Shown: positions 5,465-32,804, numbered from the stretch's first letter. The stretch: 32,804 nt of DNA from Candidatus Aenigmarchaeota archaeon CG_4_9_14_3_um_filter_37_18 (GCA_002789635.1 PFTQ01000061.1:1-32804), one strand, 5' to 3'. A program made the numbers and translations. Notes: generated from the sequence alone by a model not told the origin.

Positions 5465-5767
5465 GTGTTGAAGTTGACAAAAAAGGGCAATATTGATAGA
5501 TTGACAAAAAAAATAATTCCAATACTTAGGCAGCACGGTGTAGTCAAAGCTGGGGTTTTTGGCTCAATTGTCAGGGGCGAAGCTACAAAAAAAAGTGATA
5601 TAGACATTTTGATTCAATTTAAAGGAAGAAAGAGCCTATTGGACCTTATAGGCTTGGAATTAGAGCTAGAAAAATCATTAAGAAGGGACGTAGATCTTTT
5701 GACTTATAATTCTATTCATCCGTTATTGAGGGACAGGATCTTGAACGAAGAGGTAAGGATCATATGA
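5465..5767 (+). CDS. Minimal nucleotidyltransferase (MNT) antitoxin
   Basis: FGSIVRGE....SDIDIL (GSx10DxD); overlaps the HEPN gene. Confidence 0.92.
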   Translation: MLKLTKKGNIDRLTKKIIPILRQHGVVKAGVFGSIVRGEATKKSDIDILIQFKGRKSLLDLIGLELELEKSLRRDVDLLTYNSIHPLLRDRILNEEVRII

Positions 5768-6120
5768 AGAAAGATTCTGAAATTTTTATTAGGCATATTC
5801 TTGAGAATATAGAGAAAATAGAAAAACATACAAAAGAAGTCGAGAAAAAGAAATTTTTCGAAAAAGAAGAAATTCAAGATCTGGTGATAAGAAAATTAGA
5901 GATTATTGGCGAGGCAAGCAAAAACCTGCCAAAAGAATTTAGAAATCACCACAAAGAAGTCGAATGGAATAAAATAGGGGGGTTAAGAGACAAATTAATT
6001 CATCACTATTTTGGCGTTGATCTGGATCTAATATTTGATATTGTGAAAAAAGATTTGCCAGAGCTTAAAAAGAAAGTTAAAGATATCTTAAAAGAAATAG
6101 AAGAGAGTAAAAAAACCTGA
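5764..6120 (+). CDS. HEPN (DUF86/HepT-like) RNase toxin
   Basis: LEIIGEA and RDKLIHHY (Rx4HxY). Confidence 0.92.
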   Translation: MKKDSEIFIRHILENIEKIEKHTKEVEKKKFFEKEEIQDLVIRKLEIIGEASKNLPKEFRNHHKEVEWNKIGGLRDKLIHHYFGVDLDLIFDIVKKDLPELKKKVKDILKEIEESKKT

Positions 6121-17147: not shown

Positions 17148-17255
17148 TAGTCCCGGCAGGATTCGAACCTGCGTCTAGAGGTTACTCCCAATTCACGTCC
17201 AGAGCCTCGTATTCAAGGGTTTAAATACCTTGCTTGACCGCTACACCACGGGACT
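17148..17255 (-). tRNA. tRNA-Gln(CTG) with two introns (24/25: 17212-17230; 37/38: 17183-17198)
   Basis: Acceptor AGTCCCG/CGGGACT (A1-U72), T arm GCAGG-TTCGAAT-CCTGC; removing the 19- and 16-nt inserts gives a 73-nt cloverleaf; both junctions fold as bulge-helix-bulge. Confidence 0.92.
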
Positions 17256-19244: not shown

Positions 19245-22200
19245 TTATATTAACCTTTTAATTAACTTTTCCATTAATTCCTTGTTTATAAGCCCGTTTT
19301 CATATTGCTTGTTTATAGCTGACATAAGCTGGTTCTTTTCATTGCCTAGGCTTGGCTCTATTGCGGCTTTTCCAATGCTTAAGTCATTGATTTTTTCTTC
19401 TATAATCTTCAATAATCCTTGATTTTTTTCCTTCAATTCATCATAGGTTTTTTTAGTTATTATTTTTTCTTTGTGCTGCTCATCAAGGGCTCCAATTATA
19501 TCTTTTATGTTTGACCTTTCTTTTTCAAGCTGCTCCAACATCTCCTGTGTTTTTTCAGCTTCTGCTTCATCTTTTTTTGATTCTTCCTTTTCAATGGAGA
19601 TATTCCTTAATTCTTCAACTGAATTTCTAAGATCGTCAACCAAAAACTTTATAGAATCGATTTCAACTCCGGCTTGATTTTGTATGTACGGCTTTTGTTT
19701 TTGAATAGGCAATTTTTGCATTGCAGGATATATATTTTCTACTCTTTTTTTCTCTTCCTTTTGTTTAAACAAGAAGAAACCAACAATAAAAACAGACACT
19801 ATTAGTGTCATTCCAAAGAATGTTATCAGGATCTGTTTTGTGCTGAAGTCAAGGAAAACTCTTCCAGCTCTTGTCAGTATTGACAATTCATAAATTGCTT
19901 TATTTAATGTGTTCCTTCCGAGATTTATTTGCTCGCTTGATTTCATATAATCTTCAAGCGTGTAATAATTTTCTGCTTCTGTGATTTGTTTATTGACTTC
20001 CTCTAAAAGGCTGATTACGCTGTCTACATTCTGGCCTTTCAATTTCAGCTCCATTGTCTGCAGCTGCATTTTCAAAAGGTCGCTCTTAAGCTGTTCAATT
20101 TGCGGGAGTATAAGCTCTTTCTTTGATTGGTATACCCTTAGGGTTATTGGCTGGGAGTCAGTTGCTCCTTCTTTGGATGACATTTTTATGGAAAGCTGGT
20201 AATCTTTTGATTCTGATGATGGGGGAACTGTTATTTTTTTGATTATGCTTGAGCTTTCTCCTGGTTTAAGGGTAGGGATTTTTTGAATGGTTTGCACCCA
20301 AGTTGAATCTATTCCTTCTATAATCCCATCAATATCATTAAGGTCATTGCCTCCATCATTTTCCACAAATATTATAAGATATTCTGCTGCCCCCCTTTCC
20401 ATTTGGATTAATGAGGGGTATATTTTTGATATTTTCAAAGAGGTTTTGGCTGATGGCTTTATACCTACTCCTGATACTCCTCCAGATGGGGCCCCAGCTG
20501 CTGCTGGTCCAGTTGGTGCCGCAGGCGCTGAAACTTCTGCCAGGAAAGTGTCCTGCGAGAAAACATCTCCCATAGATCCATTTACAACATGCAGCTGACA
20601 ATAAAGACTGTAAGCGCCTTCAGACAGGCTGGACGGCAATAGGATGGTTTTCTGTTCATAGTACTCTTCACCGGAAGATATCAATTTGCTCCAGCTTATC
20701 TGTGAATGATTAGTTATCCCATCATCTATCCAGCAGGTGAATTGGGATTCTGCAGGCCCGTCTCCTTCGTTTGTTGCGTTGACTGTGAAAGCCATTGACT
20801 CTCCAATATATCCGGTAGTTGGTGCGTCTATCTCAAACCTGAAAGGGCCTCCCTGCAATATTCTGAAAGTAGTTATATCTTGTGCATAGCTTCCGTTGAC
20901 AGATGCATTCACCTTTATCATATACTGGCCGTTTATCGGGCTTGATGGGATTGTCCAGCTTGCATAATATATTCCAGTTGAGAATTGGTTGATTGTAAAA
21001 GTGACTGACAATGGGTTAAGGTCAGGGTCATATACGGTAAGATTGACTGATTCTGCATCGACTAGCTTGTTGTTATCATCATAAACTGTTACAAAGAATT
21101 TTGCTGCGTTTGTTGCATACCATAAAGGAACGGTATCAACTTCTACCCTGACTTTGCTTTTTGTGACTGAGAAGACCGATGTTGCAGTTGCAGATGATTG
21201 TGATTTTGTTGCATTTAGCACAACCAGATAGACCCCTTCCTGAGTGCTTGATGAAATATTATAAGAGTAGTAATATAAGCCAGTTGCGTTTGAAAGTTTT
21301 ATCATCTGTGATATGTTGGCAGAATGCTCAACTCCTTTGGATGGATTGTATATTGTCAGGTTCAATGAGTCAGGATCGAGCGGCTGTTTGTTGTTGTCAC
21401 GAATAGTTATCAGGAAATCTAATGTAGAGTTTGGATAAGCAGATGAATCAGAATAAATGGCTGCTTCTATTGGCGTGAGAACAGTGAAGTTGTAGATGTT
21501 TGTCCTGTTTAAGGTTATGTTTGTTGTGCTGTCAAAGTATGTTGAGTTGGAATACAGCTTATATGTCCCCTCAAGGTCGTCGCATGTTATTGTAAATGTT
21601 GGGAACGGCTCTATTGTCCCGTTCGAGTTTGTTGTTGATGTTTGGTTTTGGTTGTTCCATATTAATCTTTCACTCGGGTCTTTCAACTCGAAAGTCACAT
21701 TTGTGTTTTGCAGGGAAATATTTTCCAGGTCTTTGATGAAATAGTATATCCTCCCGCTTCCGCATTTATAATATTGTGTGGATAAAGCGGACATGTTGAT
21801 TACAAGGTTCTTGTATATTGTGAAGTTGCTTGTGTCTAGATTAGAAGCGCTCAGCACATCTATAGATTTTACTGTGAAATTATAAAAGCCTGTTTTTAAT
21901 GTAGATCCCCATGTTGACGGATAATAAGCAGAATAGTAGCTTGTCCAGCTGTCATTCCTTAGGAATTGCATTGATGTAGTATTTACATTCCCATCAGGGT
22001 CTGTCACATTTATTGTCACAGATGAAAGACCGGACTGCGTCCTATCTGTGATGGTTGCATTTATTAGGATGCTGCTGCCTTGCTCTGCTCTTTCTGGTGA
22101 GACTGAAGTTATTGCCACTAATGGACCATATGTCACTGTTATTGCCGTTCGAATAGTCTGAGTTCCGTTGTCTGATGATATCGTATAGTTCCTGTAGAAT

Positions 22201-24938
22201 ATTCCTTGGGTATCATTTGTCTCATAAAGAATAGAAAAGTTGTGCTGGGATGTCTTGCTGAGGGTAAAGTTCAGTTCATTCAAGCTTGTAAAATTTTCCC
22301 ATCCTGATGGAGTTAATGTAAAGTTGAGGATTTGGTTGCCTGTGTTTGCGACTAGTATATCGCACAGAGTGCCGGCTGCATTTTTCATAATCACTTCCTG
22401 GCATAAAGTCTGATTGGTTGACCATGTCTGAGCGACTGGCACTGTTATTGTTATGTTTATTGATGTGTTTTCCACGTTTGTATTGTTTACATTGAAGAAC
22501 CCTGTATAAGTCCCGTTAGTATAGCCCTCTGGAATTGAAAAATTAGCAGATATATTCTGCCATGATCCTGATGACAGGGATGTTATGTTTGATGGAAAGG
22601 CTACATTCCATTCGCTTGGAAACCCATAGGATGAGATGTTTAAATCGTGAATGATGTCGTTGCCTGTTGCGTTTATTAGAAAGTAAACTGACTTGTCAGT
22701 GCCTTCATTTATTGTATCAGTAATATTGCCGGGGGTTATTGCTAAAATAGGGTTGGAGCTTATATTCACATAGCTTGTGTTGGTGGAGTTTGAAGTGGAA
22801 TAGTCTAGGTTGTTCCAGTAAACTGTCGCGTTTATTGTATAGTTGGATGGGTTAGCGCCGGCTGATGTGTTTATTATCACATAGCTTATGAATTCAGCAT
22901 TCGGCAGCATGTCTTCGCATGAAATGGTTGTTGAGTTTGAAGTCCAGCTGCTTGGCTTGGAGATATTGATTTCCGCTGAATGCGCAACGCCCTCCCCTGG
23001 ATTTGTTACATTAACTTTGAATAGCAGCGATGGGTAATAATCTTGTGTTATATTGCTGAAGTCGAATGAGTATGGGGTGATGGTTATATTAAGGGAAGTC
23101 TTCGCAGACTCTGAATAAAAGTAATCATCCCCTGTTGCATTGTTGCCCGACTTTGTGGCGTTGCATTGCAGAATATATTTTCCTAGTTGAGTAGGGGCTG
23201 TGAAGTTTATATAGTATGTTCCGTTCCCGCTATCGGTTTTGTTTGTGACTAATGTCCCATTAAAGGAACAGTCTATTGCTGCGGATGATATATATGTATC
23301 ATTCCTGTAATTCCTGACGGTAACTTCAGCAAGCACTTGCCTGCTGGCATAGCCAAACCTGTTGGATATGGATGAGTTTACATTATAGGCATATGTGACA
23401 TTGAATGCTATTGTTGTCTGGTTGATTTCCTGGTTATATACATCATAAATCTTTGCTGTAAAGTTCCAACTGCCTGTGTTTGAGGAAGCAGGGAGCGTAT
23501 AATTGCCCCCAAAAATTTTATCCCCTGCCGAGGAATCATTGTGAAACCCGTCATCAAATAGTTGAATGGTCACATCATCTGAAGTTCCTGATGTTGCATT
23601 GTTTAATACAGCATAAACAGAGCTTGATGTGTTGAACGGATCTTGGGTTATATTAACTCTTAATACCATAGTCTCATTCCTGTTGTAGATTGCCTGGCCG
23701 GTTGTGATGTTTACTATCACATAATGGAATTCAGCAGATCCCAGATTTTTTTGGGCGGGTGAAACAGTCCTGTTTCTGAAATTTTCAAAACTAGTCAATG
23801 AATCGCTCTCGCTAAAAAATAATAAAGCAGCCTGCCTTATCCAGGATGATATAGTGGTTGATGCTGTCAGCTTGATATTCAAAGCGTCATTTATAATATC
23901 TATGCTTGACTTGAAATTGTCAGTGTTGTTCTCCATATAATTGATAATACCCAGCCCCCCATTCCCGCTCAAAGAATAAGCAAACGCTGATGAGAATGGG
24001 TCTATACTCCAAGAAGTTGGCTGGGTATATCCGGCACCACCTGATAATATTCTACCTGAATCTAAAGTCAACGGATAAGGATAATCAGAGCTCCTGCTGA
24101 TGCTTGAGCCGCTCGTGTTTGTCAGGTTTTGGTCTATCTTCACCCAGGAATTATTCTCATAAAAAACATAGTTTTTCCTGATCTGTGATTGGTATGTCTG
24201 CTCATTTGACCCGAAGACAGTTTCATTTCCAACCTGCTGAAAAGTAAGCCTGACAGGGCCCCTATAGACTAGAGTCATATTACCATATAAGTTAAAGCCA
24301 GTGTCTGTTCCATTATTGTAGCCTGAATACTCAGCTGTTTTAGCGCTTGACCCAGCGTTGAAAATAGTTATCCCGTTTTTGATTTTAGCATAATAAAAAC
24401 CAGAAGTCATTGAAGACCTGTTTGTGTCTATCTTCCATTCCATATTTGAGTTGTTGACTTCCAATTCCTCCTCATCCCATGAATAATTCAGGTCTGTCGG
24501 ATAGGTTGGCACTTCTTTTGTTCCATCTTCTTCCTTTGAAAAGTATATATAATAATATCTGGTTGTGCTTGCGTTGGTTGTTCCATTCATTATCCACACA
24601 ACTTCGCCTATTGCATTGTTTGATTTGTTGAAGGATGTGTACTGGTCGAATTGGCTCGGGGCTTCCCTTTTTATATAGCCTGAGGAATTATACTCAATAA
24701 CCCTGACAGAATTGTTGTCGAAATTGCCTCCATCTAAAAGCGAGGTGAAGTTTACTTCCATTTCTATTGGGAGGCTTGTTCTGTTGTAGCTTCCTGTGCT
24801 TATATTGGCAGATGCCCTATAGTTGTAGGTTGAATTCCACCATTGGAATGAACTGTCTTCCCCAAATGCAAGAACTTTAGGGCTAAATAATCCTAAAAAT
24901 AGCATTAGAGCTAAGCAAATTAACGCCCTTTTCTTCAT
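19245..24938 (-). CDS. 1897-aa membrane-anchored surface glycoprotein with cytoplasmic coiled-coil tail
   Basis: Signal peptide, WWN..Y.YR start (DUF2341-like), DDGFHNDSSAGD acidic loop (choice-of-anchor X-like), many N-x-S/T sequons in beta-rich repeats, Ala/Gly/Pro linker, one TM, charged tail. Confidence 0.88.
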   Translation of the reverse strand: MKKRALICLALMLFLGLFSPKVLAFGEDSSFQWWNSTYNYRASANISTGSYNRTSLPIEMEVNFTSLLDGGNFDNNSVRVIEYNSSGYIKREAPSQFDQYTSFNKSNNAIGEVVWIMNGTTNASTTRYYYIYFSKEEDGTKEVPTYPTDLNYSWDEEELEVNNSNMEWKIDTNRSSMTSGFYYAKIKNGITIFNAGSSAKTAEYSGYNNGTDTGFNLYGNMTLVYRGPVRLTFQQVGNETVFGSNEQTYQSQIRKNYVFYENNSWVKIDQNLTNTSGSSISRSSDYPYPLTLDSGRILSGGAGYTQPTSWSIDPFSSAFAYSLSGNGGLGIINYMENNTDNFKSSIDIINDALNIKLTASTTISSWIRQAALLFFSESDSLTSFENFRNRTVSPAQKNLGSAEFHYVIVNITTGQAIYNRNETMVLRVNITQDPFNTSSSVYAVLNNATSGTSDDVTIQLFDDGFHNDSSAGDKIFGGNYTLPASSNTGSWNFTAKIYDVYNQEINQTTIAFNVTYAYNVNSSISNRFGYASRQVLAEVTVRNYRNDTYISSAAIDCSFNGTLVTNKTDSGNGTYYINFTAPTQLGKYILQCNATKSGNNATGDDYFYSESAKTSLNITITPYSFDFSNITQDYYPSLLFKVNVTNPGEGVAHSAEINISKPSSWTSNSTTISCEDMLPNAEFISYVIINTSAGANPSNYTINATVYWNNLDYSTSNSTNTSYVNISSNPILAITPGNITDTINEGTDKSVYFLINATGNDIIHDLNISSYGFPSEWNVAFPSNITSLSSGSWQNISANFSIPEGYTNGTYTGFFNVNNTNVENTSINITITVPVAQTWSTNQTLCQEVIMKNAAGTLCDILVANTGNQILNFTLTPSGWENFTSLNELNFTLSKTSQHNFSILYETNDTQGIFYRNYTISSDNGTQTIRTAITVTYGPLVAITSVSPERAEQGSSILINATITDRTQSGLSSVTINVTDPDGNVNTTSMQFLRNDSWTSYYSAYYPSTWGSTLKTGFYNFTVKSIDVLSASNLDTSNFTIYKNLVINMSALSTQYYKCGSGRIYYFIKDLENISLQNTNVTFELKDPSERLIWNNQNQTSTTNSNGTIEPFPTFTITCDDLEGTYKLYSNSTYFDSTTNITLNRTNIYNFTVLTPIEAAIYSDSSAYPNSTLDFLITIRDNNKQPLDPDSLNLTIYNPSKGVEHSANISQMIKLSNATGLYYYSYNISSSTQEGVYLVVLNATKSQSSATATSVFSVTKSKVRVEVDTVPLWYATNAAKFFVTVYDDNNKLVDAESVNLTVYDPDLNPLSVTFTINQFSTGIYYASWTIPSSPINGQYMIKVNASVNGSYAQDITTFRILQGGPFRFEIDAPTTGYIGESMAFTVNATNEGDGPAESQFTCWIDDGITNHSQISWSKLISSGEEYYEQKTILLPSSLSEGAYSLYCQLHVVNGSMGDVFSQDTFLAEVSAPAAPTGPAAAGAPSGGVSGVGIKPSAKTSLKISKIYPSLIQMERGAAEYLIIFVENDGGNDLNDIDGIIEGIDSTWVQTIQKIPTLKPGESSSIIKKITVPPSSESKDYQLSIKMSSKEGATDSQPITLRVYQSKKELILPQIEQLKSDLLKMQLQTMELKLKGQNVDSVISLLEEVNKQITEAENYYTLEDYMKSSEQINLGRNTLNKAIYELSILTRAGRVFLDFSTKQILITFFGMTLIVSVFIVGFFLFKQKEEKKRVENIYPAMQKLPIQKQKPYIQNQAGVEIDSIKFLVDDLRNSVEELRNISIEKEESKKDEAEAEKTQEMLEQLEKERSNIKDIIGALDEQHKEKIITKKTYDELKEKNQGLLKIIEEKINDLSIGKAAIEPSLGNEKNQLMSAINKQYENGLINKELMEKLIKRLI

Positions 24939-24949
24939 TCAATCATCTA

Positions 24950-26944
24950 TCAGGTTGGTACCGGTACTTTTTCCTTTGTAATTTCTTCATCCAGATTGTT
25001 TTCTTGAGGGTTTTTCTTTAATTCAGCCGGCTTTTCTGGTTCAGGCTCTTCCTTGGCTTCAGGCTTCTCTTCTTTTTGGGCTTCAGTTTTGGGAGTTTCT
25101 TGCCCTGTTAATTCTTTTGTTTCAGTTTGTTTTGGCTCTTCTTTTGGTTTAGAATTTTCTTCAGCCGATTTCTTCTGCTCTTCTCCGTTGATTTCTGTTT
25201 TTTCTTCAACTAGTTTTTCTAGCTCAGGCTTCTCTTCTTTTGTTTCATCTTGCGTTGGCTCTTCTTTTCCTTCTATTTTTGGCAGGTTCAGATGAATAAG
25301 GCTTTCTCTTCCTTTTGAAACCTTCACTACATAACCCTCTTTTTCAAGATTTCCAATTAATCTGGAAATATAACTCAATTTATCATGATCATAATTTTCC
25401 CTGTAGATAGTTTTGGCTAAATTTTTGATGGGAATGCTGTTCTTTTCCTCGGTAGCTTCAGAGCTGTAAAGCACTGACAGCAATTGCTTCTCTCTTTTTG
25501 ATAAGTTTTCGAATTTCTTATCCTCTGATAATTTCTCCCATATTTCGATGAACTTCGAGCCTTCATGTGATTTTTCTTCTTCCGGCTCTGGAGTTTCTTG
25601 CTCTTGGCCAGCCTTCTGGACTACCCCAGGATTTTCAGGCTCTTTAACTTTCTTCTGTTCGGTTATTTTTTTTGCTTGTTCGCCGATCAGCTTATTCTCT
25701 TCGTTTGTTTTATCTTTCTTTTCTTCTTTTACTTCAGGCGGCTTATTAAAGTCCTCGAATGGGATAATTATTTCCTCTGGATTAAGTAGTGAATCGATCC
25801 TTTCAATCTCGGCAAGATTCTTTTTCCTAACATCCTTGAAAGTTTTGTCGTTTATCAAATTGGATTTGTACTGCTTCTCAATCTCATCCAAAAACCACAT
25901 AATTTTTTCTTTTTTTGCCTCAAGATCTTTCTTCTCATCTTCTTTTGAAGCAAGCTTAGAAGATAGTTTTTGGAGCTGCTCATAAGACCATTCTTTCAAT
26001 AGTTCTGCATTGTCACTGACAGGCTTCAAGGATTCATTAATCTTTCTTTTCATATCTTCCTCAATATCAGATTTAAATTCAGTGAATTTCTTGTCGAACT
26101 CCCTTTGATCCACGAAAGACTCCATCTTTATCTTTAAGAGGTCTATTTCTTTTAGTGAATCTTTGCTCATGTCTTCCAGTTTTTCCAGGGTGTTTACGTA
26201 ATCTCTGATTTCATTTACCCTCTTTTCCATCTCAAAATAAGCATTTTCAGCCTTTGAGGAGAGCACCTCAACCTTCTTTTCTCTTTCATTCATGATTGAT
26301 AGCTTGTCGTTCATCAGGTTGTGAATTTTTATTATATTTTCAAAGTTCCCTATCTTGTCAAGGAGCCTCTGGACTTTCTCAGATTTTTCCCGTATGTCAT
26401 TGATATGGGCTTCATTTTTTTCAAGCCTCCCGTCTTTTTCTAGGGAGCCCTTCTCTATTTTCTGGAGTTTCAGCGTCATTTTTTCAGGCTCTAGAACCTC
26501 CATCACAGATTTAATTTTTTCATATTCAAGGATTACATCTTTTACTTCTTTTTCCCTCTGAAGGAACATAGCCCTCAGCTCCCCTAACTCACCAGACAAT
26601 TTATCTATTCTTTCATCGGTTTTCATTTTAAGGTCTTTTATAAAGTCTATCTGCTGGTTGAATTTCTCAAACATGAACATTATTTTTTCTTTGTCGACTT
26701 CGCCAACAGAAGAGCTTATCTGAGATGTGTCCATGCTTACTTCAGCCTTTGGGGGTTCGGGTTTTTTATTTTCTGGCTGTTCTTCTTCTAATATAAAGTC
26801 AGGAGCCACCCCAGCTGACTGTATCTGGTCCAAAGTTAGAACAGAGCGCTTCTCTAGAGGTGCGCCTACAATCTTTTTTATCTTATTCCCAAATTTTGAG
26901 AATAGTCCATTCCCCTTTCCAGGATTTTCGATATCATCAGGCAT
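24950..26944 (-). CDS. 664-aa coiled-coil protein with internal winged-HTH and acidic disordered tail
   Basis: Long heptad region; LSKREKQLL..L..KNLAK..YISRLIGNLEKEGYV.K..KGR wHTH; E/K/P-rich tail. Confidence 0.8.
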   Translation of the reverse strand: MPDDIENPGKGNGLFSKFGNKIKKIVGAPLEKRSVLTLDQIQSAGVAPDFILEEEQPENKKPEPPKAEVSMDTSQISSSVGEVDKEKIMFMFEKFNQQIDFIKDLKMKTDERIDKLSGELGELRAMFLQREKEVKDVILEYEKIKSVMEVLEPEKMTLKLQKIEKGSLEKDGRLEKNEAHINDIREKSEKVQRLLDKIGNFENIIKIHNLMNDKLSIMNEREKKVEVLSSKAENAYFEMEKRVNEIRDYVNTLEKLEDMSKDSLKEIDLLKIKMESFVDQREFDKKFTEFKSDIEEDMKRKINESLKPVSDNAELLKEWSYEQLQKLSSKLASKEDEKKDLEAKKEKIMWFLDEIEKQYKSNLINDKTFKDVRKKNLAEIERIDSLLNPEEIIIPFEDFNKPPEVKEEKKDKTNEENKLIGEQAKKITEQKKVKEPENPGVVQKAGQEQETPEPEEEKSHEGSKFIEIWEKLSEDKKFENLSKREKQLLSVLYSSEATEEKNSIPIKNLAKTIYRENYDHDKLSYISRLIGNLEKEGYVVKVSKGRESLIHLNLPKIEGKEEPTQDETKEEKPELEKLVEEKTEINGEEQKKSAEENSKPKEEPKQTETKELTGQETPKTEAQKEEKPEAKEEPEPEKPAELKKNPQENNLDEEITKEKVPVPT

Positions 26945-27120: not shown

Positions 27121-27999
27121 ATGGGAATAATAATCCAAAAAATGATGGGATGGGTTTTTATAGTAGGTCTCCTAATCTTTTTTTCCGGCTTAAGTAGCTT
27201 AAATTTAGCTGAAAAATTACTTGCTTTTTTTGTGATAATTTCAATAGGCTTATTCGCTCTTCGATTAATCACAAAGGATCTCATACCAAGGGATAAGCTG
27301 GAAATGGAAATTAAGAAAGTTGACGAGCTTAAATCAGATGCTATAAGGGATGTCTCACATGAATTCAGAAACAATATCTCTTTCATTTTCAATGCTGTCG
27401 GCTTGCTAAAAGATGAAGTTGAAAAATCCAGTCCTGACAAAAGAAGAATAAGAGAACTCTTTAACACGATATCCATGTATTCCAGAAGGTTTGAAAGCCA
27501 AATATCCTCTATCCTGCAGTTCGGGATGCTTGAAAGAATGGAAGATACAGAAAAGGAGAAAGTGGATGTCCCAGCTATTATTAATAATGTTGTGAAGGAG
27601 CACGGGGAAGTTGCCAAAGAAAAAGGATTGAAGATAATAACTAAAATCGAAAAGGTTCCTTACATGCTTGGAAATTCTGAATTAATAAGGACACTAGTCA
27701 GGAACTTGGTGAGCAATGCAGTTAAATTCACTGATAAAGGCTGTGTCAGGATCGCCTGCAAAAAACAGGATAATGATATGATGATATTGGTTGAAGATAC
27801 TGGGGTGGGAATAAAGAAAGAGAATATTGAAAAATTATTCAGGCCATACTCAAAGCTTGACCCGCTCAAGGATGGGATTGGCGTCGGCTTGGTGATATGC
27901 AAAAAGATTGTTAACCTCCATAAAGGAACGATTAAGGTTGAATCAAAACTTGGAAAGGGGACTAAGTTTACCATTCTAATACCGATTAGGGCTTGCTGA
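27121..27999 (+). CDS. Class I sensor histidine kinase (2 TM, HisKA, HATPase_c)
   Basis: H box DVSHEFRN, N box NLVSNAVKFT, G1 EDTGVGI, F box LFRPY, G2 GIGVGL. Confidence 0.95.
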   Translation: MGIIIQKMMGWVFIVGLLIFFSGLSSLNLAEKLLAFFVIISIGLFALRLITKDLIPRDKLEMEIKKVDELKSDAIRDVSHEFRNNISFIFNAVGLLKDEVEKSSPDKRRIRELFNTISMYSRRFESQISSILQFGMLERMEDTEKEKVDVPAIINNVVKEHGEVAKEKGLKIITKIEKVPYMLGNSELIRTLVRNLVSNAVKFTDKGCVRIACKKQDNDMMILVEDTGVGIKKENIEKLFRPYSKLDPLKDGIGVGLVICKKIVNLHKGTIKVESKLGKGTKFTILIPIRAC

Positions 28000-28044
28000 A
28001 TAGGATAATAGATATTTATTTTAAGAATCCCAATATTCTAAAAT

Positions 28045-28410
28045 ATGGTAAAAATACTGATGGTAGAGGACTCTGCTTTTGAGAGGGAGGGAATCAAAAA
28101 TTTCCTGAGGAAATATAATTATATAGACGTAATTGAAGCAGTTGACGGGTATGAAGGGGTCAAAAAATACAAGGAGCAAAAGCCTGATTTAGTTTTATTG
28201 GATTTGAAGCTTCCTGGAATGATGAATGGCTTTGATGTTTTCAGGGAGATCAGAAAAATAAACCCTTCTGCTAAATGCATAGTTGTGAGCATCAACAGGT
28301 CAGACGATATAATAAAGAAAGCCATGGAGATGGGGATAAATTATTACATTGACAAGCCAGTCACAGAATCGAAGCTTATACCTGTTATAAAAGAGGTGCT
28401 TGGGAAATGA
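28045..28410 (+). CDS. Single-domain CheY-like response regulator 1
   Basis: VEDS, PDLVLLD phospho-Asp, VVS, YIDKP. Confidence 0.93.
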   Translation: MVKILMVEDSAFEREGIKNFLRKYNYIDVIEAVDGYEGVKKYKEQKPDLVLLDLKLPGMMNGFDVFREIRKINPSAKCIVVSINRSDDIIKKAMEMGINYYIDKPVTESKLIPVIKEVLGK

Positions 28411-28766
28411 AAAAAATACTGATTGCCGACGACTCCTTTTTTGTAAAGAAATCCTTGACAGATATTTTAAACCATGCCGGCTATAAAAATATAATCACGG
28501 CTTCTGACGGAGCTGAGGCGATTGAAAAATACATAAAAGAAAAGCCTGACCTTATTTTTTTGGATATTATAATGGATAAAAAAAATGGGATTGAAGTCCT
28601 TGAAGAAATCAGGGAAGAAGACACTGAAACCCGTGTGGTGATGCTGACAATAATTGGGCAGAGGGAAATTTTAAGCAGGGTCTTAGCTCTTGGAGTTTCA
28701 GAATATATTGTGAAGCCTTTCAACGAGGAGAGAATCCTGTCTGTCGTAAAAAAAATTCTTGAATAA
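28407..28766 (+). CDS. Single-domain CheY-like response regulator 2
   Basis: IADDS, PDLIFLD, MLT, YIVKPF; ATGA overlap. Confidence 0.93.
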   Translation: MKKILIADDSFFVKKSLTDILNHAGYKNIITASDGAEAIEKYIKEKPDLIFLDIIMDKKNGIEVLEEIREEDTETRVVMLTIIGQREILSRVLALGVSEYIVKPFNEERILSVVKKILE

Positions 28767-29421
28767 AGTGGTATTTTTGGCTGAGATAAACAAGCAATTC
28801 CTTGAAGAAAGCAAAATGAAAGAAATCATCACCAAGAGCGCAGAAGATATGATAGAATCATTGTCAACAATCATGAACAAAAAACTGAATATAATTAGCG
28901 TGGATATTCTTGACTTGAGATTGGAAGATGTAATTCAAAAAATTGGAAAGCCTGATGATATGCATGGATGCATTCAGGTGGAAATCTTCGGAAAATCTGA
29001 GATAAAGAATTCAATGCTGGGTCATTTCCTGCTGCTTATGGATCATGAAAGCATGAAAAAATTCATATCTCTTGCCGGAAGAGAAGAATCTGATGGGTTT
29101 AAAAAACACCTAGACTTTTTCAGGGAGGTTGGGAATATAACCTCCGGATCTTTTTTGAGATTAATTTCTGAGTCGCTTAAATTCGAGTTCAGGGAGTCGC
29201 TGCCAGATTTTTGCTATGACATGCTTGGATCTTGCATGGACTCAGTCTTATGCTCGATTGCTGCTACATCAGAGAAAAGCCTGATTTTTAAAGCTGTTAT
29301 AGGAATGGATGGCTTGAAAATGAATGCAATGCTGCTGTTTTATCCGGATATTTATAATTTGATTGATTTAGTGAGGGAGTCAAGTAAACAACCCACGTTT
29401 AAAAACGGAGGCTTTCCATAG
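28759..29421 (+). CDS. cheC: CheC-family phosphatase (C-terminus altered by IS; start uncertain)
   Basis: DFFREVGNI...S.P (D-x3-E-x2-N-x22-P), DMLGS, LL.YPD; context between receivers and cheD. Confidence 0.82.
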   Translation: MNKVVFLAEINKQFLEESKMKEIITKSAEDMIESLSTIMNKKLNIISVDILDLRLEDVIQKIGKPDDMHGCIQVEIFGKSEIKNSMLGHFLLLMDHESMKKFISLAGREESDGFKKHLDFFREVGNITSGSFLRLISESLKFEFRESLPDFCYDMLGSCMDSVLCSIAATSEKSLIFKAVIGMDGLKMNAMLLFYPDIYNLIDLVRESSKQPTFKNGGFP

Positions 29422-30751
29422 GTGATTCAAAATGTTGCACAGCAATTTTAAAACCAACCGCATCTGGACGGAAGAGCAAGTTTACTTTTGCTCCAGTCTT
29501 GGAACCCTGGATAGAACTCAAGTTAGTGAGACTGTGAGTAATGTTCCGCTCCAAGACAGATTTTATAGCAATAGCCAAAGAGGCTTTTCTGTCGCTATTC
29601 ACGACCTGACCACACTTCCTGCATTTATACAAAACATAATTCACCGAACTATGCCCATTATTGATTTCACCGCATTTGTAGCACCACTTGGAAGTGTGAT
29701 AAGGATCAACCTCGTGAACAGGAACTTGAAACATTTCAGAATTAGATTTAAGGAATTCTGTGAATTTACCATAAGGAATTATGTTGATTTTTTTGTTAGC
29801 TTTTTTGTTGAATTGGCCTCTTCTGCCTTTCAAATTCTTAAGCTTTTCAACAGAAATATAGGCGTTGTAAGATTTGGCAAGATTAATAATTTCTTTTGCA
29901 ATTTGACCGCTTCTTGTTTTAACAAAATTAAATTGTTTGTGTTTAAGCCTTCTCAAACTCTTTTTGGCTCTATCAGAACCCTTATCAGCAAGGCTTTTGA
30001 GATAATCTCTCCTTTTTGTATATTTTCTTTGCCTAAAAGCAACATCACGACCAAAATAGAGCTGTTTAACTACTTTGGAGTTTTCAATGTCAAAAACAGA
30101 AACAGCAGCAAGAGTAGAAGAGCCAATATCAACACCTACAACATATTTTTGGTCGATTGTTTTTTTAGCAAATTCTTTTTCGAGAACTACAGAAATTCTA
30201 CCATCCATCAAAAGAGAAATGTTGTCAAAACTCCAGCCATCTTTAAGAAACATTTGAAATCTTTGAAATTGCTTGTCAGTCTTGACAGGAAGAACAAAAG
30301 TCTTTTTAGGGGAATAAGTAACCTTAAAGCATGGATTTCCTCTTTCAGTCTCAATAAACTTAAACCATCTTTTGTTAAGCCTGATAGAGCATTTAGTGAA
30401 TTTACAACCTTTACTAAGAATATCTTTTCTGCTTTTCCAGATATCTTTTCTAGCTTCTTGAACAATATCGCTTGGAAGGAAGGAGGTTTGTCTTATGTTT
30501 GAATATGTCAGATGGTGTAGATGCGTAGCTGAAAGTGCTAAAGGCAAATCTAAACAGTGCTGGTCAAGAACTTTCAAATATTCGGAAAAGAAACTGTTAA
30601 ATATATTAGACTTATTTCTTGTTAATTCTAAATTATTTAAAACTATGCACTTTCTCACAATCTCACTACTATTGATTAGGAGCAGGCATTCTAATAGTTT
30701 GCCGCAATTCCTCCCATGCCTAAAGAACATGGGTTTCCTTGAGGCGGTTCT
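29384..30751 (-). mobile_element. Non-autonomous IS200/IS605-family (IS1341-type) element, tnpB only
   Basis: Left-end hairpin CCCATG-N9-CATGGG after TTCAT; right end ...AAACGTGGGTTGTTTAC; no TSD; removal restores a cheC-cheD overlap. Confidence 0.85.
29399..30658 (-). CDS. tnpB: RNA-guided endonuclease TnpB
   Basis: RuvC-I VGVDIG, RuvC-II VEKL, TSKWCYKC..CRKC zinc finger, RuvC-III NSDRKAS; GTG 30658 chosen because the 30730 start lies in the left-end hairpin. Confidence 0.92.
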   Translation of the reverse strand: MRKCIVLNNLELTRNKSNIFNSFFSEYLKVLDQHCLDLPLALSATHLHHLTYSNIRQTSFLPSDIVQEARKDIWKSRKDILSKGCKFTKCSIRLNKRWFKFIETERGNPCFKVTYSPKKTFVLPVKTDKQFQRFQMFLKDGWSFDNISLLMDGRISVVLEKEFAKKTIDQKYVVGVDIGSSTLAAVSVFDIENSKVVKQLYFGRDVAFRQRKYTKRRDYLKSLADKGSDRAKKSLRRLKHKQFNFVKTRSGQIAKEIINLAKSYNAYISVEKLKNLKGRRGQFNKKANKKINIIPYGKFTEFLKSNSEMFQVPVHEVDPYHTSKWCYKCGEINNGHSSVNYVLYKCRKCGQVVNSDRKASLAIAIKSVLERNITHSLTNLSSIQGSKTGAKVNLLFRPDAVGFKIAVQHFESPMESLRF

Positions 30752-31225
30752 ATGAATAAAATAGAGTTAAAGATGGGGGAATCAGTGGTTGTGAAGGAGC
30801 CCTCGGATATTGAGTTCAAGGGGTTGGGAAATTCCATAATTGTCTGCATGTTCGAGGATTACTCGAGAATAGGGGCTATGGGCCATATAATGATTCCCAC
30901 TCAGAGTTCTGCTTATAAGGAAGCCCCTTTCAGGCATGGCAGCAAGGCTATACAATATATGGTTGATAAAATAGAAAATTTAGGCGGGATCAGGCGGAGA
31001 ATTCAAGCCAAGATAATCGGGGGCGCTGTTTTATTCAAGAGATTCCCAGAAGCCGGCAGCAATGGAGAAAAAATAATTGCATTTGTTAAAAAAAGGCTGG
31101 CGGAGAAGAAGATATCTGTGGCTGCTGCGGATGTGGGCGGGGATTGCGGCAGGTCTGTGAAATTTGACAGCGAGACCGGCAAGGTTACTGTTAAAAAGAG
31201 CAATGGCGAGGTATTAGAGATTTAG
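30752..31225 (+). CDS. cheD: CheD-family protein with catalytic Cys replaced by Ser
   Basis: V.MGE-like start, GLGNS (canonical LGSC), GHIMIP, AKIIGGA.LF, DVGG..GR.V.F...TG.V.V. Confidence 0.9.
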   Translation: MNKIELKMGESVVVKEPSDIEFKGLGNSIIVCMFEDYSRIGAMGHIMIPTQSSAYKEAPFRHGSKAIQYMVDKIENLGGIRRRIQAKIIGGAVLFKRFPEAGSNGEKIIAFVKKRLAEKKISVAAADVGGDCGRSVKFDSETGKVTVKKSNGEVLEI

Positions 31226-31365: not shown

Positions 31366-31503
31366 ATGGCTGAAATAATAATCAAGAAAAAAGGCTTCAA
31401 ATGCGAAAGATGCGGGCATGAGTGGCTTCCCAGAAACGATGAAAAGCCGACAGTATGCCCTAAATGCAAAAGCCCTTATTGGAATAAACCTAAAAGTAAA
31501 TAG
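31366..31503 (+). CDS. 45-aa zinc-ribbon protein
   Basis: Hand translation MAEIIIKKKGFKCERCGHEWLPRNDEKPTVCPKCKSPYWNKPKSK; two CxxC. Confidence 0.75.
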   Translation: MAEIIIKKKGFKCERCGHEWLPRNDEKPTVCPKCKSPYWNKPKSK

Positions 31504-31537: not shown

Positions 31538-32398
31538 ATGGCTAAAAATATCTTAAGTCCAATTAATAATATTGTTTCATTTGGGTCTTTTGATCTAAAA
31601 AATTATGCATCAACATATCTAATACGAATAAATGCTGTTGGCGAGCAGCTAGAGTTTTTTGTGAAGGATGCTATTGCAGACTCGTTAAAACTACCCCAAG
31701 ATAAAAAAGAAGATGCTTATTCAAAGGCATTTTCTTATTTAGGAAATCAAAATAACCCGCCAGATATGATTATTAAAGGCAGCGATGCTTTTGAAATAAA
31801 GAAAATAGAAAATCAAAAATCTTCACTGGCATTAAATAGTTCCCCACCGAAAAATAAGCTTTTATTTAGCGATGCTAGGATAACAAATGCTTGCAGGGAT
31901 TGTGAGCCTGATAAATGGGAAGAGAAAGACTTATTTTATGTTATTGGTCATGTTGTAGGAGGGAAGATAAAACACTTGTTTTTCATGCAAGGGACATGTT
32001 ATGCAGCAGACCATAATATTTACGATAAAGTCCACAGCCCTATAAAGAAAAAAGTCGATTCCATTATAGGCTTTCTTGGCTTAGAAAAAGGAGAAACTGT
32101 TGAAATTGGAAAAGTCAAAAGAGTAGACCCTTTAGGAATTACAGAACTGAGGATAAGAGGCATGTGGCAAATACAAAACCCGCTAAAAGTATATGGAGAT
32201 CTCTGTAAGGTGGAAGATAATGATAAATTCCATTTGTTCGCATTGATGAGAAAAGAGAAATACGACTCATTTTCAAAAGAAGATAGCAACAAACTGGAAG
32301 CAAATAAAGACATCTCTATTAAAGACGTAAAAATAAAAGACCCAAACAATCCTTCAAAACTCGCCGAGGCAAAGCTAATATCATTTAAGGGGAGGTAA
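31538..32398 (+). CDS. Type II restriction endonuclease, NgoPII family
   Basis: FSYLGNQNNPPD....DAFEIKKIE....ALNSS.PK, VDPLGIT.LRIRGMW.I.NP; directly upstream of a C5 MTase. Confidence 0.85.
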   Translation: MAKNILSPINNIVSFGSFDLKNYASTYLIRINAVGEQLEFFVKDAIADSLKLPQDKKEDAYSKAFSYLGNQNNPPDMIIKGSDAFEIKKIENQKSSLALNSSPPKNKLLFSDARITNACRDCEPDKWEEKDLFYVIGHVVGGKIKHLFFMQGTCYAADHNIYDKVHSPIKKKVDSIIGFLGLEKGETVEIGKVKRVDPLGITELRIRGMWQIQNPLKVYGDLCKVEDNDKFHLFALMRKEKYDSFSKEDSNKLEANKDISIKDVKIKDPNNPSKLAEAKLISFKGR

Positions 32399-32400
32399 AT

Positions 32401-32804
32401 ATGAAAATAGCGTCATTTTTTTCTGGGGCTGGTGGGCTAGACTTAGGGTTTACTAATGCTGGCTTTGAGATAGCATACGCTAATGATAATTGGGAAAGCT
32501 GTTGGGAGACATTTGAAAAAAACCATGGGATAAAAATAGACAAAAGGTCTATTGTAGATGTTAAACCAGAAGAAATTCCAGATGCTGTAGGATTCGTGGG
32601 AGGTCCGCCATGCCAAAGCTGGAGCTTAGCTGGAGCGATGAAAGGAATCAATGACCCAAGAGGGAAGCTTTTTTGGAATTATGTTGAAATGATAGAAAAA
32701 AAACAGCCATTGTTTTTTTTAGCTGAAAATGTGCCAGGCATACTTTCCCCAAAACATAAGCCAGAATTTATGAAATTGGTAAAAAAATTCTGGAATATTG
32801 GATA
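32401..32804 (+). CDS. DNA (cytosine-5)-methyltransferase, M.HaeIII-like (3' truncated by window)
   Basis: MKIASFFSGAGGLDLGF, GGPPCQSWS, DPRGKLF, AENV; GGAGGT SD; absent from ORF track because it has no stop in the window. Confidence 0.93.
   Translation, partial: MKIASFFSGAGGLDLGFTNAGFEIAYANDNWESCWETFEKNHGIKIDKRSIVDVKPEEIPDAVGFVGGPPCQSWSLAGAMKGINDPRGKLFWNYVEMIEKKQPLFFLAENVPGILSPKHKPEFMKLVKKFWNIG

What the first reader, a model, noticed from the sequence alone, without database searches (positions are those of the whole stretch)
27121..31225. Receptor-less che-like operon: class I kinase, two CheY-like receivers, CheC and CheD
Seen: an HisKA-type kinase with two TMs joined by only a few residues heads cheY-cheY-cheC-cheD; no cheA, cheW, MCP, cheR, cheB, cheF or archaellum gene in the window. 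Known: CheC and CheD normally act in CheA/MCP pathways, where CheD deamidates receptors and activates CheC. Inference: the chemotaxis signal-termination module has been rewired onto an intramembrane-sensing kinase, giving a hybrid system I do not recognise as described.
Basis: partly seen in the sequence, partly recalled or inferred. Interest (0 to 1): 0.85.

Follow-up and report, generated by a model that had tools for sequence, protein, structure and literature searches.

The report
Kinase-driven CheY-CheC-CheD module without chemoreceptors
A tiny groundwater archaeon that has no chemotaxis machinery keeps two CheY-like switches, a CheC-type phosphatase and an altered CheD behind an ordinary membrane histidine kinase, which suggests that chemotaxis "signal-off" parts were reused in a plain two-component pathway.

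Summary
The genes are real and sit at the stated coordinates: a two-TM HisKA kinase, two CheY-like receivers, a CheC-type protein and CheD. It rewrote the last residues of CheC.

The 86%-complete assembly has no CheW, MCP, Hpt, CheR, CheB, CheF or archaellin. This is its only histidine kinase. CheW occurs in 1 of 371 genomes of the phylum.

CheC keeps one intact D-x3-E-x2-N-x22-P site. CheD has Ser and Phe at the positions aligned to the Cys and Thr that I recall as catalytic. A model places CheC's alpha2' helix in that pocket: 0.87, best control 0.00.

The only close relatives are an adjacent CheX-CheD pair in one "Aenigmarchaeota" MAG. A separate CheC-fold family sits beside a receiver, and in 12 of 15 loci a HisKA kinase, in 17 other CheW-less genomes.

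Verdict: most likely a working non-chemotaxis phosphorelay with CheC as phosphatase and CheD as a non-deamidase partner. Its output, its expression and the kinase link in the second lineage are unknown.

The parts
27121..27999 (+). Class I histidine kinase, 292 aa. It has two TM segments (about residues 8-27 and 32-51) with a loop of about 5-8 residues, the H-box SHEFRNN (His80) and a HATPase_c domain. It is the only histidine kinase in the assembly.
   Evidence: Pfam HisKA 28 bits and HATPase_c 89 bits. Hydropathy scan. The only other GHKL hit in the genome is Topo VI B. Its best homologue anywhere is only 40% identical, a PAS kinase.
28045..28410 (+). RR1, a single-domain CheY-like receiver of 121 aa. 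Read from the translation: E8/D9, D53, S82, K104.
   Evidence: Response_reg 94.6 bits. Its best solved relatives are CheY proteins: 1TMY at 77.6 bits, against 57 bits for the first natural receiver not labelled CheY. It forms a clade with RR2 and the CheY of G166, support 96/92.
28407..28766 (+). RR2, a single-domain CheY-like receiver of 119 aa. Read from the translation: D8/D9, D53, T81, K103. It overlaps RR1 by 4 nt.
   Evidence: Response_reg 96.4 bits. Best solved relatives are the archaeal CheY 6ER7 (87.3 bits) and 1TMY. NCBIfam CheY_Halo 98.8 bits, below the cut-off of 200. Tree.
28759..29421 (+). CheC-type protein, 220 aa from the TTG start. It has the full-length CheC architecture. The first site is degenerate. 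The second site is intact: D119-x3-E123-x2-N126-x22-P149. The last ~11 residues (SSKQPTFKNGGFP) are not shared with relatives and lie where the IS begins.
   Evidence: A profile of 5 relatives aligns to residues 3-187 of T. maritima CheC (1XKR) at E 3.5e-10.
29399..30730 (-). TnpB (RNA-guided nuclease of an IS200/IS605-type element), 443 aa, antisense to the operon. It overlaps the cheC ORF by 23 nt, and its start codon lies 21 nt from the cheD start codon. It is single-copy in the assembly.
   Evidence: Pfam Cas12f1-like_TNB 51.1 bits and OrfB_IS605. NCBIfam guided_TnpB 111.1 bits against cut-off 100. No second copy by blastn or tblastn. Junction sequences.
30752..31225 (+). CheD-family protein, 157 aa, full length. 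Phe22, Ser28 and His45 align to T. maritima Thr, Cys and His. A GAGG motif lies 8-11 nt before the ATG.
   Evidence: Pfam CheD 81.3 bits. Alignment to 2F9Z chain C at E 3.6e-24. Column counts in 151 CheD sequences. Sequence.
24950..26944 (-). Coiled-coil protein, 664 aa, with a weak C-terminal winged-helix signal, divergently transcribed from the kinase. Homologues lie beside kinase-receiver loci in relatives, which makes it a candidate partner or output.
   Evidence: BLASTP E 1e-25 to the neighbour of the kinase-receiver pair in congener G002. tblastn hits beside kinase and receiver genes in G015, G021 and G057. DUF7343 19.8 bits, below cut-off.
19245..24938 (-). Giant surface-type protein, 1897 aa, with MG2 and NPCBM_assoc domains. 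It is the next gene after the coiled-coil protein. Homologues flank the kinase-receiver loci of relatives.
   Evidence: Pfam. tblastn 35-39% identity to genes flanking the loci of G148, G155 and G152.

Best explanation
This is a self-contained two-component phosphorelay built from chemotaxis-derived parts. It is not a chemotaxis pathway.

Proposed mechanism:
1. The membrane kinase has no extracellular domain. It senses something in or at the membrane, or through a partner protein, and autophosphorylates on His80.
2. It passes the phosphoryl group to Asp53 of one or both CheY-like receivers. Neither receiver has an output domain, so they must act by binding another protein.
3. The CheC-type protein removes the phosphoryl group through its single intact E123/N126 site.
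4. CheD lacks the Cys and Thr I recall as catalytic and has no receptor to deamidate. It has probably been kept as a CheC-binding regulator that docks on CheC's alpha2' helix and tunes the phosphatase.
5. The likeliest output is the neighbouring coiled-coil protein and giant surface-protein machinery.

Shown: gene content, residue states, genome-wide absences, conservation of the CheC-CheD pair.
Inferred: every biochemical step and the output.
For: - All five ORFs are intact with significant domain hits.
- The acceptor and catalytic residues of the kinase, both receivers and CheC site 2 are present (read).
- The assembly has 0 hits for CheW, MCPsignal, Hpt, CheR, CheB, CheF and archaellin, each with positive controls.
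- It has only this kinase and only these two receivers above the Pfam cut-off.
- CheW is found in 1 of 371 phylum genomes and in 0 of 4 congeners.
- CheD: Ser at the aligned Cys position and Phe at the aligned Thr position. Both are shared with its 69%-identical relative. Among 151 CheD sequences, 146 have Cys, 4 Ser and 1 Gly.
- CheX and CheD of the other lineage carry consecutive accessions, MBL7170057.1 and MBL7170058.1. They are 59% and 69% identical to the window's proteins, full length, with the motif kept.
- Complex model: score 0.87 in each of 3 runs, best of 3 controls 0.00. That mark was reached by 58 of 80 solved complexes and 2 of 110 mismatched pairs. Runs agree in at least 85% of contacts and partner pLDDT is at least 88. 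The interface is CheC 147-169 against CheD 23-28, 92-98 and 132-135.
- In 17 other genomes a CheC-fold protein accompanies a receiver and usually a HisKA kinase.
- In B. subtilis, CheC-CheD binding matters more than either enzyme activity (PMC3513319, abstract and passages).
Against: - An antisense 1.33-kb TnpB element now separates cheD from the operon and changed the CheC C-terminus. CheD may therefore be poorly expressed or not expressed at all.
- CheD was not found in any of the 60 closest relatives searched, and in only 3 of 371 genomes of the phylum. The CheD-bearing version is rare.
- Only two lineages carry it, and the kinase link in the second could not be checked.
- The kinase has no close homologue (40% at best).
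- A like complex (2F9Z) is solved, so the model's pass may reflect memory of that structure rather than binding by this copy.
- Ser could still act as a nucleophile, so loss of catalysis is not proven.
- All che-type NCBIfam hits fall below the equivalog cut-offs.
- The assembly is 85.6% complete.
- There is no expression or biochemical evidence.
Confidence: 0.55

Rival explanations
1. Decaying leftover. A fragment of a horizontally acquired chemotaxis operon (cheY-cheY-cheC-cheD) landed beside an unrelated kinase. It is being lost, and the IS insertion is the first visible hit. The proteins no longer work together.
For: TnpB sits between cheC and cheD and altered the CheC end. CheD is in 0 of 60 near relatives. 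CheD has lost the aligned Cys and Thr. CheC's first site is degenerate. The locus is followed by a restriction-modification pair, which suggests a variable region.
Against: No frameshift or internal stop occurs in any of the five genes. Junctions are tight as far as cheC. The Ser and Phe changes and the CheC motif are shared with a relative only 59-69% identical, so the state is old and maintained. The same sequence, IS included, is held by 23 groundwater or aquifer runs, which may be one campaign or the source itself. GC content matches the flanks.
Confidence: 0.15
2. CheD is still an enzyme. With Ser28-His45 it deamidates, demethylates or cleaves a non-receptor substrate, for example the Glu/Gln-rich coiled-coil neighbour, the kinase, or CheC itself. 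CheC acts mainly as its inhibitor.
For: His45 and the Gly-rich pocket are kept. Ser can act as a nucleophile. CheC's alpha2' helix is modelled in the pocket, as a substrate mimic would be. A long coiled-coil protein is a conserved neighbour.
Against: Cys stands at this position in 146 of 151 sequences, which argues for thiol chemistry. The aligned Thr is a bulky Phe only in these two proteins. No substrate is identified. No MCP-signal domain exists in the genome.
Confidence: 0.15
3. The CheC-type protein is an output or adaptor rather than a phosphatase. Like FliM, it binds phosphorylated receiver and passes the signal on.
For: The fold is shared with FliM and FliY (on the related family). In the class-wide family the E/N pair is replaced in 4 of the 6 aligned sequences.
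Against: The window's protein and its four relatives keep the full D-x3-E-x2-N-x22-P site invariant. It aligns best to CheC, not FliM.
Confidence: 0.1
4. A full chemotaxis system lies in the unassembled ~14% of the genome and uses these proteins.
For: The assembly is 85.6% complete in 67 contigs. One genome of the same class (G166) does have CheA-like, CheW, CheC, CheD, CheR and CheY genes.
Against: That would need CheA, CheW, MCPs and a motility organelle to be missing together. CheW is in 0 of 4 congeners and 1 of 371 phylum genomes. No archaellin or CheF was found. The window's CheC and CheD are only 28% and 34% identical to those of G166.
Confidence: 0.03

Closest known systems
CheC-CheD-CheY module of Bacillus subtilis and Thermotoga maritima chemotaxis (structure 2F9Z)
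   Same: The same three protein families. CheC aligns over its full length to T. maritima CheC, and CheD to T. maritima CheD. The modelled interface uses CheC's alpha2' region and CheD's pocket.
   Different: There is no CheA, CheW or receptor. A HisKA kinase heads the operon. CheC has one intact site instead of two. CheD has Ser and Phe where the catalytic Cys and Thr align. An IS splits cheC from cheD.
CheX-type single-site CheY-P phosphatases (Borrelia, Vibrio; PMC12887009, abstract and passages seen)
   Same: One E-x2-N active site. Pfam scores CheX slightly better than CheC, and NCBI named the relative 'CheX'.
   Different: The protein is about 200 aa with the two-half CheC architecture, not the ~150-aa CheX. 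It is paired with CheD. CheX proteins, as I recall, do not bind CheD.
Intramembrane-sensing histidine kinases (LiaS/BceS type; definition recalled)
   Same: The input part is just two TM helices with a very short loop, followed directly by the HisKA and HATPase_c domains.
   Different: No neighbouring ABC transporter or LiaF-like partner was seen. The partners are CheY-like single-domain receivers, not DNA-binding regulators. The organism is an archaeon.
Chemosensory pathways with alternative cellular functions (Wsp, Dif, Frz; recalled)
   Same: Che-family proteins are used for something other than swimming.
   Different: Those systems keep the MCP-CheW-CheA core. Here the core is absent and a class I kinase stands in its place.
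Class-wide kinase / receiver / CheC-fold module of the same archaeal phylum (found here; alignment A4)
   Same: A CheC-fold protein sits beside a single-domain receiver and usually a HisKA kinase. A coiled-coil protein and giant surface proteins are often nearby. The genomes lack CheW.
   Different: The proteins are not orthologous. The window's receivers are 31-39% identical to that family's receiver, whereas those receivers were 56-99% identical to the G057 receiver used as query. The profile of the window's CheC type matches the class-wide family only at E 7e-5 to 8e-3. That module has no CheD, a single receiver, and an E/N pair that varies.

Membership tests
CheC/CheX/FliY phosphatase family | Sequence homology over the CheC fold | tested here: met
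   Profile of 5 relatives against PDB: 1XKR E 3.5e-10, residues 3-187. Pfam CheC 22.3 bits against cut-off 22; CheX 25.1 against 27. NCBIfam CheC_Thtogales 48.6 bits, below the equivalog cut-off of 250.
CheC/CheX/FliY phosphatase family | Active-site motif D/S-x3-E-x2-N-x22-P (recalled consensus; two copies in CheC, one in CheX) | tested here: met
   The second copy is intact and invariant in 5 sequences: D119, E123, N126, P149. In the first copy, Lys aligns to both the Glu and the Asn of T. maritima CheC. The protein therefore has one site, like CheX.
CheC/CheX/FliY phosphatase family | Hydrolysis of phospho-CheY | not testable with these tools
   Needs a biochemical assay.
CheD chemoreceptor deamidase | CheD domain | tested here: met
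   PF03975 81.3 bits against cut-off 25. 2F9Z chain C at E 3.6e-24. NCBIfam CheD equivalogs score at most 107.7 bits, below their cut-offs of 223 or more.
CheD chemoreceptor deamidase | Catalytic Cys-His-Thr triad (identity of the residues recalled from the 2F9Z paper; positions read from the alignment) | tested here: not met
   Ser28 aligns to the Cys, Phe22 to the Thr, and His45 is kept. The Cys column holds 146 Cys, 4 Ser and 1 Gly among 151 sequences. Phe at the Thr column occurs only in this protein and its 69% relative.
CheD chemoreceptor deamidase | Methyl-accepting receptor substrates in the same genome | tested here: not met
   MCPsignal had 0 hits in the assembly, with 8 of 14 control genomes positive. 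The assembly is 85.6% complete.
Chemotaxis (MCP-CheW-CheA) pathway | CheA (Hpt and CheW-like P5 domains), CheW, MCP | tested here: not met
   CheW 0, Hpt 0 and MCPsignal 0 in the assembly. The only other GHKL protein is Topo VI B. CheR, CheB, CheF and archaellin are also 0.
Class I (HisKA) two-component histidine kinase | HisKA dimerisation/His domain with the acceptor His, plus a HATPase_c domain | tested here: met
   HisKA 28 bits against 26.9; HATPase_c 89 bits against 26.4. His80 lies in SHEFRNN.
Class I (HisKA) two-component histidine kinase | Phosphotransfer to the adjacent receivers | not testable with these tools
   Inferred only from operon position and from the lack of any other kinase or full receiver in the assembly.
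Intramembrane-sensing histidine kinase | Input consists of two TM helices with a very short external loop and no other sensor domain (recalled definition) | tested here: met
   Hydropathy peaks at residues 8-27 and 32-51 with a loop of about 5-8 residues. Pfam finds no domain before HisKA. No dedicated TM predictor was available.
CheY (chemotaxis single-domain response regulator) | Single receiver domain with the acidic pocket, acceptor Asp, Thr/Ser and Lys | tested here: met
   Response_reg 94.6 and 96.4 bits. Residues were read: RR1 has E8, D9, D53, S82, K104; RR2 has D8, D9, D53, T81, K103.
CheY (chemotaxis single-domain response regulator) | Closer to CheY than to other receivers | tested here: inconclusive
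   The top solved relatives of both are CheY proteins. They form a clade with the G166 CheY at 96/92 support, but on long branches and with no outside references. NCBIfam CheY_Halo scores 66.7 and 98.8 bits, below the cut-off of 200, and is not the top hit for RR1.
IS200/IS605-type TnpB | TnpB family profile | tested here: met
   NCBIfam guided_TnpB 111.1 bits against cut-off 100. Pfam Cas12f1-like_TNB 51.1 bits against 26.3. The element's ends and guide RNA were not mapped.

The most novel reading that the evidence does not exclude
CheD has changed jobs. Instead of binding receptors, it binds and stimulates the class I kinase or the coiled-coil neighbour. Phosphorylated CheY drives CheC to sequester CheD. 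The result is an adaptation-type negative feedback loop on an ordinary two-component kinase, with no receptors and no methylation. Together with the class-wide kinase/receiver/CheC-fold module, it controls the giant surface-protein apparatus these small archaea may use to hold on to a host.
Probability: 0.12. Interest if true: 0.85.

Novelty: new variant of a known kind. Interest (0 to 1): 0.62.

Why it matters
CheC and CheD are treated as accessories of the MCP-CheA chemotaxis pathway. Here they appear with a class I kinase in an organism, and a phylum, with essentially no chemotaxis core. In this setting CheD seems to have been kept for binding rather than catalysis.

If this is confirmed, three things follow:
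- CheC-type phosphatases would be general terminators for two-component signalling.
- There would be a natural test of the idea from B. subtilis that CheC-CheD binding matters more than their enzyme activities.
- A conserved signalling module would be linked to the giant surface proteins of small-genome archaea, whose regulation is unknown.

All the proteins are small and soluble apart from the kinase's membrane anchor, so in vitro tests are feasible even though the organism is uncultured.

Tried and rejected
- **Context of the second lineage.** I looked for the contig carrying P0002 and P0168. Two scans of genome contigs found nothing. Adjacency of CheX and CheD therefore rests on consecutive accession numbers alone, and the genes upstream are unknown.
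- **Kinase homologues.** The search gave no close relative (best 40%), so it could not link a kinase to the second lineage.
- **Names for nearby CheD sequences.** The look-up gave no taxon names, so no donor could be named.
- **Expression.** No RNA holder was listed among the 24 runs returned. Read laying was not used, because the runs are kept as contigs of DNA libraries.
- **Rfam.** The whole window gave only a tRNA. No guide-RNA family was found for the TnpB.
- **PADLOC.** Only generic domain hits appeared, and none for CheC or CheD, so a defence-system reading was dropped.
- **G283.** Its CheD lies in a classical MCP-CheR-CheD-CheY/CheX-CheB cluster on a 6.4-kb contig of a genome with no CheW. 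I treated it as unrelated and possibly foreign to that bin.
- **IS boundaries and the original cheC stop.** These could not be fixed without an uninterrupted allele. All CheC variants of the population that were listed (214-220 aa) are of the long form.
- **Complex prediction.** Only the CheC-CheD pair was folded.
- **Literature.** The Muff & Ordal 2008 review on CheC-type phosphatases is not held, and I saw only its title in reference lists. It may discuss CheC proteins outside chemotaxis. Supplementary tables were not consulted, for example Table S6 of PMC9680633, which lists che components per archaeal genome.

Full report
**1. What is in the sequence**

- A 292-aa kinase: HisKA 28 bits against cut-off 26.9; HATPase_c 89 bits.
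- Two single-domain receivers of 121 and 119 aa: Response_reg 94.6 and 96.4 bits.
- A 220-aa CheC-type protein: CheC 22.3 bits against cut-off 22; CheX 25.1 against 27.
- A 157-aa CheD: 81.3 bits against 25.

The kinase has two hydrophobic stretches, about residues 8-27 and 32-51, joined by about 5-8 residues. His80 follows about 29 residues after the second stretch, and no HAMP or PAS domain is present.

The gene junctions fit one operon up to cheC: a 45-nt gap between kinase and RR1, a 4-nt overlap between RR1 and RR2, and an 8-nt overlap between RR2 and cheC.

**2.

A 443-aa TnpB gene lies on the minus strand at 29399-30730, between cheC and cheD. Pfam scores Cas12f1-like_TNB at 51.1 bits, and NCBIfam guided_TnpB scores 111.1 against a cut-off of 100. 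It overlaps the cheC ORF by 23 nt, and its start codon lies 21 nt from the cheD start codon. It is single-copy in the assembly.

Four relatives of the CheC-type protein end in ...KKEIE. The window's protein instead runs on for 11 more residues. The element therefore landed at the very end of cheC or at the cheC-cheD junction. It replaced only the last few codons.

All variants of this protein listed for the population are of the long form, 214-220 aa. All 23 groundwater or aquifer runs that hold the stretch hold all of its sampled words. The insertion thus looks fixed in the sampled population, though those runs may be one campaign or the source itself.

cheD keeps a GAGG motif 8-11 nt before its ATG. 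Whether it is still transcribed is unknown.

**3. State of the proteins**

- **Kinase:** H-box SHEFRNN with His80.
- **Receivers:** RR1 has E8, D9, D53, S82 and K104. RR2 has D8, D9, D53, T81 and K103 (read).
- **CheC-type protein:** it aligns over its whole length to T. maritima CheC (1XKR residues 3-187, E 3.5e-10). In the first of CheC's two active-site helices, Lys aligns to both the Glu and the Asn. The second site, D119-x3-E123-x2-N126-x22-P149, is intact and invariant in all five sequences. It has CheC architecture but, like CheX, a single site.
- **CheD:** it aligns to T. maritima CheD (2F9Z chain C, E 3.6e-24). Ser28 aligns to the Cys, Phe22 to the Thr, and His45 to the His. I recall these three residues as the catalytic triad from the paper on that structure; that identification comes from memory, not from a call. 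The conservation counts do not depend on my recall. In 151 CheD sequences the Cys column holds 146 Cys, 4 Ser and 1 Gly, and the His column holds 150 His. Phe at the Thr column occurs only in this protein and its one close relative.

**4. No chemotaxis core**

The assembly is 891 kb in 67 contigs, 85.6% complete with 0.3% contamination. It gave 0 hits for CheW, MCPsignal, Hpt, CheR, CheB, CheF and archaellin. Every one of these searches was positive in control genomes.

Other counts in the assembly:
- One CheD, which is this one.
- Two receivers over the Pfam cut-off, which are these two, plus a 130-aa receiver-like ORF at 27.7 bits against 30.2.
- Two GHKL proteins: this kinase and Topo VI B.
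- Two T2SSE-type ATPases.

Across the phylum, CheW is found in 1 of 371 genomes and in none of the 4 congeners. A hidden che system in the missing 14% is therefore unlikely. A published survey also states that DPANN archaea have no chemotaxis system (PMC9680633; passages seen).

**5. How rare the CheD-bearing version is**

CheD was found in 0 of 60 relatives of the same genus, family and order. It was found in 3 of 371 phylum genomes: this one, G166 and G283.
- G166 has canonical CheC and CheD (with GSC), CheR and CheY beside pilin-, FlaJ- and FlaI-like genes. It also has CheW and a CheA-like ORF, so it carries a real che system.
- G283's CheD sits in a classical MCP-CheR-CheD-CheY/CheX-CheB cluster on a short contig.

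An exhaustive HMMER scan of 1.84 billion representatives found no CheD above 40% identity apart from the query's own cluster. The word-based search added one protein at 69% identity. It is named CheD of a "Candidatus Aenigmarchaeota archaeon", accession MBL7170058.1.

The closest CheC-type protein outside the window's own population is 59% identical, 201 aa, and named CheX. It comes from the same set of contigs and has the preceding accession, MBL7170057.1. The two genes are therefore adjacent there with no IS between them. Two more relatives (57-58% identical) are known only from short contigs.

I could not obtain the DNA around any of them.

**6. A wider pattern in the phylum**

Receivers occur in 18 of 61 relatives, counting this genome. 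Weak hits of the window's CheC profile led to a second family of about 210-aa proteins, alignment A4.

Evidence that this second family has the CheC fold:
- Its AlphaFold model has pLDDT 79.9 and pTM 0.80.
- The model matches T. maritima CheC best (2F9Z_A E 7e-12; 1XKR TM 0.71), then a haloarchaeal CheC-like protein, FliY and FliM.
- Its profile also hits the three CheC paralogues of G166.

Distribution and context:
- It is present in 18 of 371 genomes at E <= 1e-5. That is 17 besides G166, and it does not include this genome.
- I examined 15 of those 17 loci; G151 and G154 were not fetched. In all 15 it lies within 5 kb of a conserved single-domain receiver that is 56-99% identical to the G057 receiver used as query.
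- It is directly next to that receiver in at least 11 of the 15.
- A HisKA kinase hit is in the fetched stretch in 12 of the 15, one of them weak.
- A coiled-coil protein and a giant surface protein with a HerA-like ATPase domain are frequent neighbours.

Against a simple phosphatase reading of this second family, the E-x2-N pair is kept only in G057 (and its near-identical G152) and in G148. It reads E..Y in G155 and G033, and Q..D in G015 and G021.

**7. How the window's cassette relates to that pattern**

The window's locus sits beside homologues of the same coiled-coil and giant proteins. In congener G002 an ordinary CBS-kinase and receiver occupy the equivalent place.

The window's proteins are not orthologues of the class-typical ones:
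- Its receivers are 31-39% identical to the class-typical receiver.
- Its kinase is 29-37% identical to the class-typical kinases.
- In a tree of 21 receivers, RR1, RR2 and the G166 CheY form a clade with support 96/92. The branches are long and there are no outside references.

My reading is that a che-derived cassette (two CheYs, CheC, CheD) behind its own class I kinase stands where relatives carry the native module. This is inference.

**8. CheC-CheD contact**

A complex model of CheC (1-209, 5-row alignment) with CheD (60-row alignment) scored 0.87 in each of three runs, and the best of three controls scored 0.00. That mark was reached by 58 of 80 solved complexes and 2 of 110 mismatched pairs. 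The runs agree in at least 85% of contacts, and partner pLDDT is at least 88.

The interface joins CheC residues 147-169 to CheD residues 23-28, 92-98 and 132-135. The CheC stretch is the invariant SLPDFCYDMLGSC..S.LCS segment after the active-site helix. The CheD stretch 23-28 is the pocket loop that includes Ser28.

A like complex (2F9Z) is solved. The pass therefore shows likeness to that complex, not that this copy binds.

**9. Mechanism and rivals**

Best reading (0.55): a working, non-chemotaxis phosphorelay. The steps are kinase His80 to receiver Asp53, output by protein binding, signal ended by CheC site 2, and CheD kept as a CheC-binding modulator. This fits B. subtilis, where CheC-CheD binding matters more than either enzyme activity (PMC3513319, abstract and passages; PMC7289035, passages).

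Rivals:
- A decaying HGT fragment (0.15).
- CheD is still an enzyme on a new substrate (0.15).
- CheC is an adaptor rather than a phosphatase (0.10).
- A che system is hidden in the unassembled part (0.03).

Nothing biochemical is shown. The output is a guess from gene neighbourhood.

**10. Novelty**

Six full-text searches found no paper describing CheC and CheD with a class I kinase in a genome without CheA. The 2008 review on CheC-type phosphatases could not be read. I rate this a new variant of known kinds, of moderate to high interest to signal-transduction specialists.

**11. Limits**

- The assembly is incomplete.
- Only two lineages carry the CheD-bearing form.
- The kinase link in the second lineage is unverified.
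- There are no expression data.
- The transmembrane call rests on hydropathy alone.
- The identity of the catalytic triad is recalled.

Noticed in passing
L027 (G057:C1:603000-617000); also L025, L026, L028, L046-L048, L050-L057: A class-wide module in CheW-less genomes of this phylum. It combines a giant surface protein with a TM segment and a HerA-like ATPase domain, a coiled-coil protein, a HisKA kinase with varied sensor domains, a highly conserved single-domain receiver, and a ~210-aa CheC-fold protein that Pfam barely detects. That protein has an invariant LSDEN motif, but its E-x2-N pair varies.
   Followed up: partly
L005 (G166:C164:1-9206), L035, L036: One genome of the same class carries canonical CheC-CheD, CheR and CheY beside KaiC-like, pilin-, FlaJ- and FlaI-like genes. 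It also has CheW and a CheA-like ORF elsewhere. This looks like a real chemotaxis system in a phylum reported to lack one.
   Followed up: partly
L004 (G283:C266:1-6378): A classical MCP-CheR-CheD-CheY/CheX fusion-CheB-CheY cluster on a 6.4-kb contig of a genome with no CheW hit. It may be foreign to that bin.
   Followed up: no
window 28759-29421, residues 152, 159 and 165; CheD residue 32: Three Cys residues are invariant in the five CheC-type relatives. They lie on the helix modelled against CheD. CheD keeps a nearby Cys32. A redox or metal role is possible.
   Followed up: no
window 31366-31503, 31538-32398 and 32401-32804: An NgoPII-type restriction enzyme and a C5 cytosine methylase follow cheD. 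They are preceded by a 45-codon ORF with two CxxC pairs (read by eye). On L006 the methylase is followed by an ORF that by eye resembles an IS200-type transposase (no family search run), near where the window's contig ends.
   Followed up: no
window 5465-6120 and 11289-12305: A nucleotidyltransferase/HepT-like pair, which is toxin-antitoxin-like, and a second C5 DNA methylase.
   Followed up: no
window 17148-17255 (-): A tRNA match spans 108 nt for a 71-position model, so the gene probably contains an intron.
   Followed up: no
L059 (G000:C65:8457-8849, minus strand): A 130-aa ORF with a sub-threshold receiver-like match (27.7 bits against 30.2). Congeners G002 and G004 also gave weak sub-threshold receiver matches over similar profile positions; whether these are the same protein was not checked.
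   Followed up: no
L023 (G013:C3:36000-46484): A receiver fused to a KaiC-like ATPase, followed by a PAS kinase and two single-domain receivers at the end of the contig. It is another multi-receiver locus in the same family.
   Followed up: no
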